DNA of 64,000 nucleotides from assembly GCA_044347345.1 (NCBI GenBank), contig JBIKUX010000010.1, positions 27,032 through 91,031 of the forward strand, written 5' to 3'. The translations under genes and the position numbers were made by a program. The notes under the pieces are model-generated. The model was given only the letters and a program-made list of their open reading frames with translations, did not search any database and had not been told where the DNA came from. The stretch comes from Bdellovibrionota bacterium (GTDB taxonomy: Bacteria; Bdellovibrionota_C; UBA2361; JBIKUX01). Of this stretch, positions 33,262 through 35,715 are shown piece after piece (the stretch's first letter is position 1; the number at the start of each line of letters is the position of its first letter).

Positions 33262-34047
33262 ATGGCACTTGTTGAATTAGATTGGACAACTTTAGGGGAT
33301 GGGGTAGCTCTTTTACGATTAAACGATCCGACTCGTCTAAATGCAATGAGCGTAGATATGGCTGAATCTATGCGCGAAGTTATAGCCCAGCTATTACTCA
33401 AAACAGATTTACGGATGGTAATTCTCACCGGCACTGAAAGAGCGTTTTCGGCTGGTGGAGATATAGAAATGTTAGCTAAGCGTTGTGAAGTATCTGCTGA
33501 ACAGAACCGTATTTTTATGAGGCGTTATTATAATGATTTTCTAGCTTTAAGAACGCTTGGAGTACCCCTTATTGCCGCTATAAATGGCATTACCGTAGGA
33601 GCTGCTTCAGCCCTAGTGTGTGCATGTGATTTACGAATCGCTACAATCACCTCCAGCATGAGCTTTTCATTTGTCAGACTTGGTCTTCACCCAGGTATGG
33701 GTACAACTTGGTTCTTACCATCTGTTGTAGGGGTAGCTCGAGCCACAGAGCTCTTACTCACAGCTCGGACGTTATCGTCTTCTGAGATGATTGAATATGG
33801 ATTAGTGAGTAAAGTAGTACCCGACCAAGAGCTGATGAATGCTGTTGAGGAATTAGTTTCAGTAATCTTAAAAGGCGGTACCGAATGTATTAAGCAATTG
33901 ATATCTACTTTACGAGCTCCTTCATCATGCTTAAATCAAGCCTTAGAAAGAGAGTGCCTTGTACAAGCGCTTAATTACTCTGGGGCAGAGTTTAAAACAC
34001 TACTAAAAGAAAAAATAGATAAAAAACCCAGTCTATCCAAAGACTGA
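33262..34047 (+). CDS. Enoyl-CoA hydratase/isomerase family protein
   Basis: AFSAGGD, IAAING, CDLRIA, LGLHPGMG. Confidence 0.92.
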   Translation: MALVELDWTTLGDGVALLRLNDPTRLNAMSVDMAESMREVIAQLLLKTDLRMVILTGTERAFSAGGDIEMLAKRCEVSAEQNRIFMRRYYNDFLALRTLGVPLIAAINGITVGAASALVCACDLRIATITSSMSFSFVRLGLHPGMGTTWFLPSVVGVARATELLLTARTLSSSEMIEYGLVSKVVPDQELMNAVEELVSVILKGGTECIKQLISTLRAPSSCLNQALERECLVQALNYSGAEFKTLLKEKIDKKPSLSKD

Positions 34048-34081
34048 ATATGAGAAACAACTTTGATTACTTATCTGAGAG

Positions 34082-34609
34082 TTAAACGTTGCTGAAAGGG
34101 ATTAAACCTAAGTTTTGAGCTCTTTTTATAGCTTTTGACACTTTTCTTTGGTTGTTTGCTTTCAGCCCAGTTAACCGCCGTGATAAAATTCGGCCACGTT
34201 CACTTACGAATCTTGACAGTACAGCTATGTCTCTATAGTCAACTGGCTTTTCAGGATCTTCAGTAAAAGGATCGAGTTTTTTCTTGCGACGAAACAACTG
34301 CATTCGCTGTATCGGGGGTAAAGGCTCGAATTTTTTTTGAGTACCCTCGGTTCCTCCTTTGCCACGATCCTCAACTACCTTAATTGGACGACCGTTTAGT
34401 ATAAACCCGTTTAATTGCTCGCTAACACTACGAGCTGATTCTTCATTTTGCATTTCCACAAAGGCGAATCCCTTTGAACGCTTACTATCTCGATCTACTG
34501 CTACTACCACGCTTGATGATGGGGCTATTGCGTCTACAGCCTCTCTTAGCTGTTCAGAGGTGACTTCGAAGTCTAGATTACTAACAAATAGTTTTTTCTT
34601 GATAGACAT
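34082..34609 (-). CDS. rpsR: RRM domain fused to 30S ribosomal protein S18 (zinc-free type)
   Basis: N-terminal RNP2 LFVSNL and RNP1 KGFAFVEM; C-terminal VDYRD..L.RFVSERGRILSRRLTG...QRKVSKAIKRAQNLGLIPF. Confidence 0.92.
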   Translation of the reverse strand: MSIKKKLFVSNLDFEVTSEQLREAVDAIAPSSSVVVAVDRDSKRSKGFAFVEMQNEESARSVSEQLNGFILNGRPIKVVEDRGKGGTEGTQKKFEPLPPIQRMQLFRRKKKLDPFTEDPEKPVDYRDIAVLSRFVSERGRILSRRLTGLKANNQRKVSKAIKRAQNLGLIPFSNV

Positions 34610-34671
34610 ATAACTTTTAAATTTTTAATCTCGGGTTGACGTTTAATCGTTCATTCCCCAGTCGTATAATG

Positions 34672-34740: not shown

Positions 34741-35715
34741 TTGGCTAAAATGAATTATGCGAAGACAGACTACAAAGACGATATTGAGTTGTGGTGGATG
34801 AAGAGTATCCTCCGCATAGCTGGTATCTACAATGTTTTCTTTGGTATTTGGTGTATATTATTTCCTACCTCGTTTTTTCGATTGAGCGGAATGGAATTGC
34901 CGAATTATCCGGAACTTTGGCAATGTATTGGCATGATAGTTGGAGTGTACGGAATAGGTTACTGGATTGCCGCCAGTGCTCCTCTTCGTCACTGGCCCAT
35001 TGTTTTAGTAGGGTTAGTCGGCAAAATTCTCGGACCTTTGGGTTTTATTGGAGCTTTAATTTCAGGTCGTTGGACTCTTTCATCGGTATGGCTGATTGTT
35101 ACTAATGATTTGGTGTGGTGGTTGCCGTTTGGTGCCATTCTTTGGGGTGTTACTCTGAGAAACATGGATCCAGAATTTTTGGGTTTACTCTCAAAAAGCT
35201 CTAGAGATGAAGGAAAAAGACAATGGCAGGCGCTAATTAACAAATCCTCTCATAATCCAATTCTTGTGGTATTTTTAAGGCACTTAGGATGTATTTTTTG
35301 TGCTGAAGCTGTTAGCGAGCTTCGTGATATTTTGCCGTCGCTTAATTCGTCTGGAATTTCACTTACCGTGGTTTCAATGTCAGATGAAAAGAGTATTAAA
35401 GAGTATTTAGGTCAAGCTTTTAGTGATAAGAGTACGATGAGTGATATCGAGATTGTTAGCGATCCAACAACAGCTCTTTACCGAGAAGTTCAGCTACCCA
35501 GAGGGTCTTTTTGGCAACTTTTTGGTTGGTCTTCTGCAGTTCGAGGATTCAGCGCGATGAAGAAAGGTTTTTTACCTGGTCGTTTATCTGGTGATGGAGC
35601 TCAACTTGCTGGGGTATTTTTGCTCAGTAACGGGGCAGTAGTAGCATCTCATCTAACCTCCTATGCTGGAGAGACCTTACAATTAAAGACTTTTTTACAT
35701 GATAGCCTTCATTGA
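34741..35715 (+). CDS. Membrane domain fused to AhpC/TSA-like (peroxiredoxin-like) redox domain
   Basis: Four-TM N-terminus (WQCIGMIVGVYG, NDLVWW.PF) then FLRHLGCIFC, VSDP, GD..QL.GVF; start may be 34798. Confidence 0.8.
   Translation: MAKMNYAKTDYKDDIELWWMKSILRIAGIYNVFFGIWCILFPTSFFRLSGMELPNYPELWQCIGMIVGVYGIGYWIAASAPLRHWPIVLVGLVGKILGPLGFIGALISGRWTLSSVWLIVTNDLVWWLPFGAILWGVTLRNMDPEFLGLLSKSSRDEGKRQWQALINKSSHNPILVVFLRHLGCIFCAEAVSELRDILPSLNSSGISLTVVSMSDEKSIKEYLGQAFSDKSTMSDIEIVSDPTTALYREVQLPRGSFWQLFGWSSAVRGFSAMKKGFLPGRLSGDGAQLAGVFLLSNGAVVASHLTSYAGETLQLKTFLHDSLH

What the first reader, a model, noticed from the sequence alone, without database searches (positions are those of the whole stretch)
34082..34609. 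RRM RNA-binding domain fused to a zinc-free ribosomal protein bS18
Seen: one uninterrupted 175-aa ORF. About aa 5-82 form a full RRM (RNP2 LFVSNL, RNP1 KGFAFVEM), followed by a short Gly/Lys/Pro linker and a complete bS18. The protein has no Cys or His, so the Zn ligands are gone (KKLDPF, TGLKANNQR). The gene is not beside rpsF/ssb/rplI. Known: bS18 sits with bS6 on the 30S platform near the anti-SD and mRNA exit, and bacterial RRM proteins are usually standalone. Inference: it could tether a single-strand RNA reader to the ribosome platform, recruiting mRNAs in a bS1-like way or defining a specialised ribosome if a normal rpsR also exists. I do not know of a characterised example.
Basis: partly seen in the sequence, partly recalled or inferred. 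Interest (0 to 1): 0.85.

Follow-up and report, generated by a model that had tools for sequence, protein, structure and literature searches.

The report
Ribosomal protein bS18 carrying an RRM
This bacterium's only gene for ribosomal protein bS18 has an RNA-binding RRM domain joined to its front by a flexible linker, a design shared by its whole uncultivated phylum, so its ribosomes probably carry an extra RNA-binding module beside the site where mRNA is first engaged.

Summary
Window 34082..34609 (minus strand) is one 175-aa ORF. It has an RRM at aa 5-82, a 20-aa linker, and a complete bS18 from M103 to the end.

It is not a chimera. Three RNA-library contigs bridge the join with no differences. 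The design also recurs across the whole GTDB phylum of 124 species representatives: 116 have exactly one S18 match each, and 113 of those lie in open frames of 170-268 aa.

The fusion is the only rpsR in this genome. The old L25-Pth-S6-L9 cluster lacks rpsR in 6 of 6 genomes checked. "Zinc-free" is the ordinary state of bS18 as far as I recall.

The RNA-binding residues of the RRM are invariant or nearly so. The linker is modelled as a coil.

Best reading, part shown and part inferred: a constitutive ribosomal protein that tethers a single-strand RNA binder at the 30S platform, next to the anti-SD and mRNA exit, most likely to catch mRNA leaders.

Five literature searches found no description. 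Databases call the protein plain "S18" and sometimes truncate it. This scan has met the same fusion twice before, on other DNA.

The parts
34082..34609 (-). Whole gene: RRM-linker-bS18, 175 codons plus the stop codon (34082-34084)
   Evidence: ORF list and translation. Pfam and NCBIfam domain hits. It is the sole S18 gene of the genome.
34364..34597 (-). RRM domain, aa 5-82, with RNP2 at aa 6-12 and RNP1 at aa 46-53
   Evidence: PF00076 matches aa 7-77 at E 8.9e-18. The AF2 model shows beta-alpha-beta-beta-alpha-beta with pLDDT of 90 or more. F8, G47, F48 and F50 are invariant or conserved in at least 90% of 139 homologues.
34328..34363 (-). Variable Gly/Glu/Ser/Arg-rich linker, aa 83-94
   Evidence: AF2 models it as coil, with pLDDT 58-67 over aa 81-120. 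The length from aa 83 to the M103 column varies from 20 to 47 residues among 139 homologues, and the variable part is 30% Gly.
34304..34327 (-). Conserved pre-S18 motif EPLPPIQR, aa 95-102
   Evidence: L97, P98, I100, Q101 and R102 are each present in 120 of 120 order-level sequences. The other orders of the class carry AP(M)GYFRAQPLDLG in its place. Its function was not tested.
34085..34303 (-). Complete bS18 body, aa 103-175, starting at the retained ancestral start codon (ATG at 34301-34303)
   Evidence: TIGR00165 matches aa 107-173. E. coli-type bS18 chain residues 4-71 align to query 105-173. Public 72-75-aa 'S18' gene calls start exactly at this Met.
34026..34049 (-). Terminator-like hairpin followed by a T run, 33 nt after the stop codon
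   Evidence: Pattern scan: 9-pair stem, then TTTTTATCTA. This is a consensus match only. RNA-library contigs run on past it.
34610..34652 (-). A/U-rich leader without a Shine-Dalgarno motif
   Evidence: Sequence. The fold is no more stable than shuffles (z 0.48). Contigs of two RNA libraries from one study end at 34651 and 34652, which is not a mapped 5' end.

Best explanation
The gene encodes the organism's one and only ribosomal protein bS18. An RRM and a 20-47-residue flexible linker were added in front of the intact ancestral S18 reading frame, whose start codon survives as M103.

This happened once, in the ancestor of the phylum. In the same lineage rpsR left the rpsF-rpsR-rplI cluster.

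Because there is no other bS18, I infer that essentially every 30S subunit carries the RRM. bS18 sits with bS6 and bS21 on the platform, and its N-terminus points into the cavity that holds the anti-SD and the 5' side of the mRNA. The tethered RRM would therefore sweep the mRNA-exit side of the 30S.

My preferred mechanism is inferred, not shown. The RRM binds single-stranded leader RNA upstream of the start codon and raises the local mRNA concentration at the platform. That would be a standby or capture function beside bS1, useful in a genome where only a minority of genes show an SD motif.
For: Shown here:
- Domain identity: both domains score far above their cut-offs.
- Sole copy: the own genome has one S18 match over the cut-off. 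The only other candidate scores 12.1 bits at E 0.64 in a 33-aa frame.
- Phylum-wide: 116 of 124 genomes have exactly one S18 match and none has two. Of those 116, 113 lie in open frames of 170-268 aa.
- Relatives of the same order: 38 of 40 match the query across both domains in one frame.
- Other orders of the class: 19 of 20 fetched loci are RRM+S18 by phmmer.
- Protein databases: 457 hits to this protein, and 316 hits to a relative from another order of the class. The best 120 listed in each search all carry PF00076 plus PF01084.
- Operon loss: S6 is directly followed by L9 with no S18 in 6 of 6 genomes from 6 families.
- Single origin is not contradicted: 43 fused RRMs sit on one side of a branch against 18 free RRMs, with support 95/80, and do so in 94% of bootstrap trees.
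- RNA-binding face kept: G47 and F48 are invariant. F8, N11 and F50 are conserved in at least 90% of 139 sequences.
- Flexible tether: AF2 gives pLDDT 83.6 but pTM only 0.46. The RRM and S18 parts reach about 90, and aa 81-120 are coil at 58-67.
- The join is real in RNA libraries: contigs from X10, X11 and X14 cover 33900-34651, 33900-34652 and 34063-34597. They show 0 differences, no indels and no joints.
- The S18 part still looks like an S6 partner: the predicted complex scores 0.58 against a best control of 0.01. That mark was reached by 58 of 80 solved complexes and 2 of 110 mismatched pairs. At 0.60 or under it was reached by only 7 of those 80 solved complexes and by both passing mismatches, so the verdict is 'weak support'. 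The runs agree in at least 38% of contacts and the partner pLDDT is at least 66. S6:S18 is a textbook pair, so the pass may come from memory of solved ribosomes.
- Context: the anti-SD is intact (GGATCACCTCCTTT). bS1 and bS21 are present. An SD core lies at -18..-4 in 21.4% of 1731 long ORFs, against 44.6% of 121 E. coli ORFs by the same crude method.

From papers (passages read):
- The E. coli bS18 N-terminus becomes ordered on contacting mRNA, and the chloroplast bS18 N-terminal extension projects into the platform cavity (bioRxiv 10.64898/2026.07.03.736309).
- In Flavobacterium johnsoniae the 16S 3' tail lies in a groove formed by bS6 and bS18 (PMC7797042).
Against: - No ribosome, proteome or RNA-binding data exist for this protein, so incorporation into 30S and any RNA target are inferred.
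- One genome, G049 (92% complete), has an S18 with a linker remnant but no RRM upstream, on a 5.5-kb contig. If that is real, the RRM is dispensable there.
- G087 has the RRM and S18 in adjacent, different frames.
- Eight of 124 genomes (55-90% complete) show no S18 at all, including a single-contig genome, G040. I cannot explain this beyond incompleteness.
- A k-mer scan of leaders found only SD-like words enriched, so there is no candidate RRM motif.
- The SD comparison uses uncurated start sites and only 150 kb of E. coli. It shows no causal link to the fusion.
- A full bS1 is present, so there is no evident 'gap' for the RRM to fill.
Confidence: 0.55

Rival explanations
1. The tethered RRM binds ribosomal RNA rather than mRNA. 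The most interesting version has it bind the pyrimidine-rich 3' tail of 16S rRNA (the anti-SD), masking or handing it over. That would be a covalent counterpart of the anti-SD sequestration by bS21/bS18/bS6 in Bacteroidia. A plainer version has it bind another 16S helix as a structural protein, as cS22 does in chloroplasts.
For: - bS18 lies directly along the 16S 3' tail in F. johnsoniae (PMC7797042, passages).
- The anti-SD is intact here, yet only 21.4% of long ORFs have an SD core, against 44.6% in E. coli by the same crude count.
- The gene's own leader, and most leaders of 19 relatives, show no obvious SD by eye.
- The cS22 RRMs bind 16S h6 and h10 (bioRxiv 10.64898/2026.07.03.736309, passages).
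- bS21 also has an R/G/D-rich N-terminal open-frame extension in this order.
Against: - SD-like words are still the most enriched leader motifs and peak at -14..-8, so the anti-SD is in use.
- The 16S matches the bacterial model end to end (positions 1-1533 in 1517 nt) with no expansion that could act as a docking site.
- Linker length varies from 20 to 47 residues and the linker is modelled as coil. That suits a mobile reader better than a fixed structural domain.
Confidence: 0.2
2. The RRM works mainly off the mature ribosome. It could act as an assembly chaperone for the platform, or as the sensor in feedback control of its own mRNA, now that rpsR is a lone gene outside the S6 operon.
For: - The gene stands alone between a divergent and a convergent neighbour, with its own terminator-like hairpin.
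- Many ribosomal proteins regulate their own mRNAs (established knowledge, recalled).
- In Bacteroidetes, bS18 and bS21 are proposed to control their own translation (PMC7797042, passages).
Against: - The leader is unstructured (z 0.48).
- The 64-kb window has no Rfam match.
- An RRM kept with invariant RNP residues across a phylum, on the sole bS18, would sit on every ribosome in any case.
Confidence: 0.1
3. Two products arise from one gene. Translation starts both at M1, giving RRM-bS18, and at the retained ancestral start M103, giving plain 73-aa bS18. The cell would then hold a mixed ribosome population whose ratio could be regulated.
For: - M103 aligns within one or two residues of the first residue of E. 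coli-type bS18.
- It is Met in 104 of 120 order-level sequences.
- Gene callers have started 'S18' there in public records.
- G049 appears to live with the short form.
Against: - 16 of 120 order-level sequences have Thr at this position. In the 19 sequences from other orders of the class, the aligned column is Gln or Val.
- No SD-like sequence lies within 20 nt upstream of the internal ATG here (sequence).
- RNA-library contigs cannot show starts.
Confidence: 0.08
4. Artefact: a chimeric assembly join, a frameshift, or a read-through of two separate genes.
For: None found. Short 'S18' gene calls exist in databases. The one I traced (P0279) lies inside a 182-aa fused ORF.
Against: - The same architecture occurs in 113 of 116 S18-bearing genomes of the phylum and in hundreds of protein clusters.
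- Three RNA-library contigs cross the join without a difference.
- Nine further DNA runs hold all sampled words of the stretch, though they may be the source of this assembly.
Confidence: 0.01

Closest known systems
Canonical bacterial bS18 (rpsR; Pfam PF01084, NCBIfam TIGR00165)
   Same: - aa 103-175 are a complete bS18 and align over nearly the whole length of solved bS18 chains.
- It is the only copy in the genome.
- A predicted contact with the genome's bS6 gets weak support.
   Different: - It carries about 100 extra N-terminal residues (RRM plus linker).
- The gene has left the rpsF-rpsR-rplI cluster in 6 of 6 genomes.
- No solved chain covers both domains.
Chloroplast bS18c with its N-terminal heptad-repeat extension
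   Same: [quoted passage not shown] The authors propose that it contacts mRNA (bioRxiv 10.64898/2026.07.03.736309, passages).
   Different: The chloroplast extension is a short, disordered basic/aromatic repeat of about 19-55 residues. It is not a folded RNA-binding domain, and it arose in a different lineage.
Chloroplast cS22 (PSRP2), a ribosomal protein made of two RRMs
   Same: RRM domains serve as stable parts of a bacterial-type 30S. The RRM of this protein matches cS22 chains by sequence (5x8p_v E 3.6e-12, 5mmj_v E 1e-11).
   Different: cS22 is a separate protein at the foot of the 30S and binds 16S h6 and h10. Here the RRM is covalently tied to a platform protein near the mRNA exit.
Free-standing bacterial RRM proteins (cyanobacterial Rbp family; Bacteroides RRM-1 proteins; NCBIfam NF058537 Rbp_regulator)
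   Same: - Single RRM with canonical RNP1 and RNP2.
- NF058537 matches aa 7-82 at 70.3 bits.
- Synechocystis Rbp3 co-purifies with ribosomes (PMC12232666, passages).
- This genome also has two free RRM genes.
   Different: - The NF058537 score is below that family's cut-off of 100 bits.
- The fused RRMs separate from 18 free ones on a tree.
- The Rbp3 authors found no direct evidence that it binds ribosomes directly. Here the link is covalent.
Anti-SD sequestration by bS21/bS18/bS6 in Bacteroidia
   Same: It involves the same three platform proteins next to the 16S 3' tail, in a lineage with an intact anti-SD but fewer SD motifs than E. coli.
   Different: - Bacteroidia use side chains of ordinary-length proteins. 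No RRM is involved.
- SD motifs are still enriched here.
- I did not test the Bacteroidia-specific residues.

Membership tests
bS18 (Ribosomal_S18, TIGR00165 equivalog) | Sequence matches the family model above the curated cut-off over its full length | tested here: met
   PF01084 scores 79.6 bits (cut-off 21) over profile positions 3-52 of 52. TIGR00165 scores 77.7 bits (cut-off 38.75) over profile positions 2-68 of 70.
bS18 (Ribosomal_S18, TIGR00165 equivalog) | Is the genome's functional rpsR, with no other copy to do the job | tested here: met
   The 95.8%-complete genome has one match over the cut-off. Each of 116 genomes of the phylum has exactly one match.
bS18 (Ribosomal_S18, TIGR00165 equivalog) | Pairs with bS6 on the 30S platform | tested here: inconclusive
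   The predicted complex with the genome's bS6 scores 0.58 against a best control of 0.01, verdict 'weak support'. This is a textbook pair, so the score may be memory of solved ribosomes.
bS18 (Ribosomal_S18, TIGR00165 equivalog) | Physically present in 30S subunits | not testable with these tools
   This needs ribosome purification, proteomics or cryo-EM.
bS18 (Ribosomal_S18, TIGR00165 equivalog) | Usual gene context rpsF-(ssb/priB)-rpsR-rplI. This is typical of the family but does not define it. | tested here: not met
   S6 is followed directly by L9 with no S18 in 6 of 6 genomes.
RRM (Pfam RRM_1, PF00076) | Family model matched above the cut-off | tested here: met
   64.4 bits (cut-off 20.7) over profile positions 1-70 of 70.
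RRM (Pfam RRM_1, PF00076) | beta1-alpha1-beta2-beta3-alpha2-beta4 fold | tested here: met
   AF2 gives E6-10, H18-26, E31-38, E45-53, H56-66, E77-80, with pLDDT 90-93.
RRM (Pfam RRM_1, PF00076) | RNP2 and RNP1 motifs with the aromatic residues that stack on RNA bases (the consensus is recalled) | tested here: met
   The motifs are KLFVSNL and KGFAFVEM. F8 is in 138 of 139 sequences, F48 in 139 of 139 and F50 in 138 of 139.
RRM (Pfam RRM_1, PF00076) | Binds single-stranded RNA | not testable with these tools
   This needs a binding assay.
Zinc-independent (C-) S18 paralogue of the zinc-starvation type (as recalled for mycobacterial RpsR2) | Coexists with a Cys-rich C+ S18 copy that it replaces when zinc is scarce | tested here: not met
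   There is only one S18 gene per genome. No member of A1 has 3 or more Cys in the S18 part.
NCBIfam NF058537 Rbp_regulator (free bacterial RRM regulators) | Score above the curated cut-off of 100 bits | tested here: not met
   70.3 bits.

The most novel reading that the evidence does not exclude
In this order the whole mRNA-exit face of the 30S platform has been rebuilt with protein-borne RNA binders. bS18 carries an RRM. bS21 carries an R/G/D-rich, RGG-like N-terminal extension. bS6 has extra tails.

Together these appendages would take over part of start-site selection from SD:anti-SD pairing, either by capturing unstructured leaders or by gating the anti-SD. That would be a third solution, besides the E. 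coli type and the Bacteroidia type. It would explain why only about a fifth of long ORFs here have an SD core although the anti-SD is intact.
Probability: 0.2. Interest if true: 0.85.

Novelty: new variant of a known kind. Interest (0 to 1): 0.68.

Why it matters
Core bacterial ribosomal proteins rarely gain folded domains, and bS18 sits at the spot where mRNA is first engaged. A whole phylum whose only bS18 carries a canonical RRM is a natural experiment in protein-based mRNA or anti-SD handling by the 30S subunit.

It could be tested directly by RNA-binding assays of the RRM, by swapping the gene into a model bacterium, or by cryo-EM of ribosomes from enrichments.

It also exposes an annotation blind spot. 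Public records label the protein plain "S18". In at least one case they start the gene at the internal Met, which hides the RRM.

Tried and rejected
1. The exhaustive profile search of 1.84 billion representatives with alignment A1 was swamped by long multi-RRM proteins (4-14 matched stretches each). Only 2 of the 150 listed hits (P0129, 187 aa; P0205, 203 aa) are fusion-like. It therefore says nothing about the range of the fusion outside the phylum.

2. My first regex for S18 found nothing, and one script crashed. I replaced them with phmmer and a corrected script.

3. A k-mer scan of leaders (-22..-3 against -80..-61, 1474 ORFs) gave only SD-like words, plus an unexplained TAAGTA (37 against 4). 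It yielded no candidate RRM target.

4. The leader fold is no more stable than shuffles.

5. The 64-kb window has no Rfam family above gathering score.

6. The DNA run X12 left 34206-34316 uncovered. Nothing can be concluded from that hole.

7. The RNA-library contigs end at 34651 and 34652, but contigs cannot map a 5' end, and I found no convincing -10 box at the right distance by eye.

8. The promoter scan found no site on the minus strand.

9. The ESM Atlas returned one RRM+S18 cluster (50 members, commonest taxon Bdellovibrionota). This is probably the protein's own cluster.

10. Presence of the fusion in sister phyla, for example cultivated Bdellovibrio, could not be tested.

11. I considered an obligatory internal start at M103 and set it aside, because 16 of 120 order-level sequences have Thr there.
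Full report
**1. Observation**

The window holds one uninterrupted ORF of 175 aa at 34082..34609, on the minus strand.
- Pfam finds RRM_1 at aa 7-77 (E 8.9e-18) and Ribosomal_S18 at aa 121-170 (E 1.8e-22).
- NCBIfam's S18 equivalog model covers aa 107-173 at 77.7 bits, against a cut-off of 38.75.
The protein has no Cys or His.

An AlphaFold2 model built on 139 homologues has mean pLDDT 83.6 but pTM only 0.46.
- The RRM is modelled as beta-alpha-beta-beta-alpha-beta at pLDDT 90-93.
- aa 81-120 are coil at pLDDT 58-67.
- The S18 helices are at pLDDT 84-93.
- So these are two confident domains with no fixed mutual orientation.

Solved bS18 chains align from about query residue 98-105 to 172-174. 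E. coli-type chain residues 4-71 align to query 105-173. No solved chain covers both domains. M103 therefore sits where a normal bS18 begins, and everything before it is an addition.

**2. It is real, old and lineage-wide**

The assembly in which the window lies has 2.53 Mb in 68 contigs and is 95.8% complete.

Relatives of the same order:
- 38 of 40 match the query over both domains in one frame.
- The two misses, G029 and G040, show only RRM matches.

The whole GTDB phylum has 124 species representatives including this one, all in one class.
- 116 genomes have exactly one S18 match each, and none has two.
- 113 of those 116 matches lie in open frames of 170-268 aa.
- The three exceptions:
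  - G087 has frames of 108 and 135 aa side by side, which points to a frameshift or masked bases.
  - G046 has a 48-aa piece that matches only the C-terminal part of the S18 model.
  - G049 is treated in section 5.
- Eight genomes (55-90% complete) have no S18 match. A profile of the fusion found only free RRM genes in the four of them that I rechecked. I take this as incompleteness but cannot show it. G040 is a single contig.

I fetched 20 loci from the other orders of the class. Nineteen encode RRM + linker + S18 by phmmer.

Protein databases:
- A search with this protein gave 457 hits among 515 candidates.
- A search with a member from another order of the class gave 316 hits among 403 candidates.
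- The best 120 listed in each search all carry both Pfam domains.

Public contigs with the fusion are titled Bdellovibrionota, Bdellovibrionales, Deltaproteobacteria, Proteobacteria/Pseudomonadota or Dadabacteria MAGs.

On a tree of 61 RRM domains, the 43 fused ones lie on one side of a branch against 18 free ones. Support is 95/80, and the split appears in 94% of bootstrap trees. The tree rests on 80 columns and an arbitrary root, so this is consistent with a single fusion event but does not prove one.

**3. Reads**

Contigs from three metatranscriptome libraries of one study cover the ORF:
- X10 covers 33900-34651.
- X11 covers 33900-34652.
- X14 covers 34063-34597, which leaves out the first four codons.

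All three show 0 differences, no indels and no joints, so they bridge the RRM-linker-S18 join. Contigs cannot prove transcription or map ends, and DNA can be present in RNA libraries. Nine DNA runs hold all sampled words, but they may be the source of this assembly.

**4. Sole rpsR, moved out of its operon**

The own genome has one S18 match above the cut-off. The only other candidate is a 12-bit, 33-aa chance hit.

rpsF lies on contig C68 in the order L25-Pth-S6-L9, with 62 bp between S6 and L9 and no S18. The same S6-L9 adjacency without S18 holds in 5 further genomes from 5 other families, making 6 of 6.

It also rejects a zinc-starvation C- paralogue.

**5. Details of the added module**

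Conservation in the 139-sequence alignment:
- G47 and F48 are invariant.
- K6, F8, N11, F14 and F50 are conserved in at least 90% of sequences.
- Identity to the query within the order averages 63% for the RRM and 77% for S18. In the other orders it is 41% and 54%.
- The RRM is thus only a little less constrained than the ribosomal part.

The linker, from aa 83 to the M103 column, is 20-47 residues long. Its variable part is 30% Gly.

A short motif just before S18 is strikingly conserved. In the order it reads E-P-L-P-(P/S)-I-Q-R, with five positions at 120 of 120. In the other orders it reads AP(M)GYFRAQPLDLG. I did not test its role. Docking on the platform is a guess.

M103 is Met in 104 of 120 order-level sequences and Thr in 16.

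Public databases hold 23 short S18 proteins similar to the C-terminal part. Of the 10 I fetched, 7 begin with MQLF, the motif at M103. I traced one of them, P0279, a 72-aa protein named 'S18' by a source. It is the tail of a 182-aa fused ORF in G013. So at least some short calls are truncated annotations.

G049 is different. Its frame upstream of the Met still reads linker-like residues (…NNRRHNDSDSGDYNKGAP-MGYFKAQ…), but no RRM lies upstream. It looks like a secondary loss, on a 5.5-kb contig.

**6. Setting**

- The gene stands alone between a divergent membrane-protein ORF (34741..35715, plus strand) and a convergent ORF (33262..34047, plus strand). I read the latter by eye as enoyl-CoA hydratase-like and did not scan it.
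- A terminator-like hairpin follows at 34049-34026.
- The leader is A/U-rich, has no SD and is unstructured.
- The 16S 3' end is canonical, GGATCACCTCCTTT.
- bS21 and a full bS1 are present.

SD usage, by one crude method (first ATG of stop-to-stop frames of at least 150 aa):

| Set | ORFs | SD core (GGAG/GAGG/AGGA) at -18..-4 | Same words at -40..-26 |
|---|---|---|---|
| This genome | 1731 | 21.4% | 7.6% |
| E. coli, 150 kb | 121 | 44.6% | 3.3% |

- Twenty random 150-kb samples of this genome gave 14.7-30.1%.
- SD is therefore used, but by a minority of genes.
- No other leader motif stood out.

**7. How it most likely works**

Shown: a conserved, apparently RNA-competent RRM is tied by a flexible linker to the only bS18.

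From papers (passages read):
- bS18 lies with bS6 and bS21 along the 16S 3' tail in F. johnsoniae (PMC7797042).
- The E. coli bS18 N-terminus orders on contact with mRNA (bioRxiv 10.64898/2026.07.03.736309).
- The chloroplast bS18 N-terminal extension projects into the platform cavity and is predicted to touch mRNA (same preprint).

Inferred: every 30S carries an RRM within some tens of angstroms of the mRNA exit and anti-SD.
- I favour leader capture, a standby function beside bS1, at about 0.4 within an overall 0.55 for the whole statement.
- The rivals are rRNA or anti-SD binding (0.2), assembly or autoregulation (0.1), and dual products from M1 and M103 (0.08).
- Artefact is excluded (0.01).
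- The predicted complex with the genome's own bS6 gave only 'weak support': 0.58 against a best control of 0.01. The pair is textbook, so this adds little.

**8. Known or new**

Five full-text searches aimed at the fusion listed no paper that describes an RRM-bS18 fusion. I judged this from titles and abstract starts, and from passages of the papers I opened.

Sources name the protein 'small subunit ribosomal protein S18', once 'cold-inducible RNA-binding protein', and twice 'hypothetical protein' in an isopod assembly flagged as contamination.

Earlier notes of this scan (e1-4899572 and e1-1398415) found the same fusion on other genomes and read it the same way. I re-tested their claims here and added these points:
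- the one-copy census;
- the operon evidence;
- the retained start codon and the truncated annotations;
- the RRM-less G049;
- the RNA-library contigs;
- the SD calibration;
- the bS21 observation.

The closest known analogues are the chloroplast bS18c extension, cS22, free bacterial RRM proteins that co-purify with ribosomes (PMC12232666), and the Bacteroidia anti-SD pocket.

I class it as a new variant of a known kind: a core ribosomal protein with an accreted domain.

**9. Verdict**

Interest is 0.68: a specialist would be surprised, and it gives a handle on start-site selection in SD-poor bacteria. However, everything beyond the anatomy is inference, and the hosts are uncultivated.

Noticed in passing
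Own genome contig C28, locus L048 1276-1695 (+): bS21 lies in a 139-aa ORF. The canonical 67-aa S21 follows about 70 residues rich in Arg, Gly, Asp and Ser (RGG-like).
- The open frame around S21 is at least 100 aa in 79 of 85 same-order genomes, but in only 5 of 33 genomes of other orders of the class (my count from the table).
- G005 shows a similar R/G/D/E-rich stretch.
- The start codon, and whether the extension is translated at all, are not established.
   Followed up: partly
Own genome contig C68, locus L003 773-3273 (-): A conserved L25-Pth-S6-L9 cluster lacks rpsR. The own bS6 is 151 aa, with about 20 extra N-terminal residues and a long C-terminal tail relative to the Pfam S6 core.
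   Followed up: partly
Locus L085 513-1061 (-), genome G013: A public 72-aa protein named '30S ribosomal protein S18' (P0279) is the C-terminal part of a 182-aa RRM-S18 ORF. The gene call starts at the internal Met and hides the fusion.
   Followed up: yes
Locus L068 2381-2713 (+), genome G049: This is the only S18 of the phylum seen without an RRM. The frame upstream of its Met still reads linker-like residues, and no RRM ORF lies upstream on this 5.5-kb contig. It is either a secondary loss or a misassembly.
   Followed up: partly
Own genome contig C10, locus L004 1492-1896 (+): A free-standing 134-aa RRM protein has a Gly/Arg/Asp-rich C-terminal tail. Next to it, on the opposite strand, is a 343-aa ORF that looks sigma-70-like by eye. 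A second free RRM gene lies on C40.
   Followed up: no
Whole genome, leaders -22..-3 of 1474 long ORFs: The hexamer TAAGTA occurs in 37 leaders, against 4 in the -80..-61 control window. This is unexplained.
   Followed up: no
Proteins P0394 and P0397: Two RRM-S18 fusion proteins are filed under an isopod (Idotea baltica) assembly as 'UNVERIFIED_CONTAM hypothetical protein'. They are presumably bacterial contigs from this lineage.
   Followed up: no
Genome G040 (single contig, 2.3 Mb, 82% complete): Neither Pfam S18 nor the fusion profile found any S18, although bS21 and a free RRM gene are present. This is unexplained.
   Followed up: partly
Window 1-64000: No Rfam family reaches its gathering score anywhere in the 64-kb window.
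   Followed up: yes
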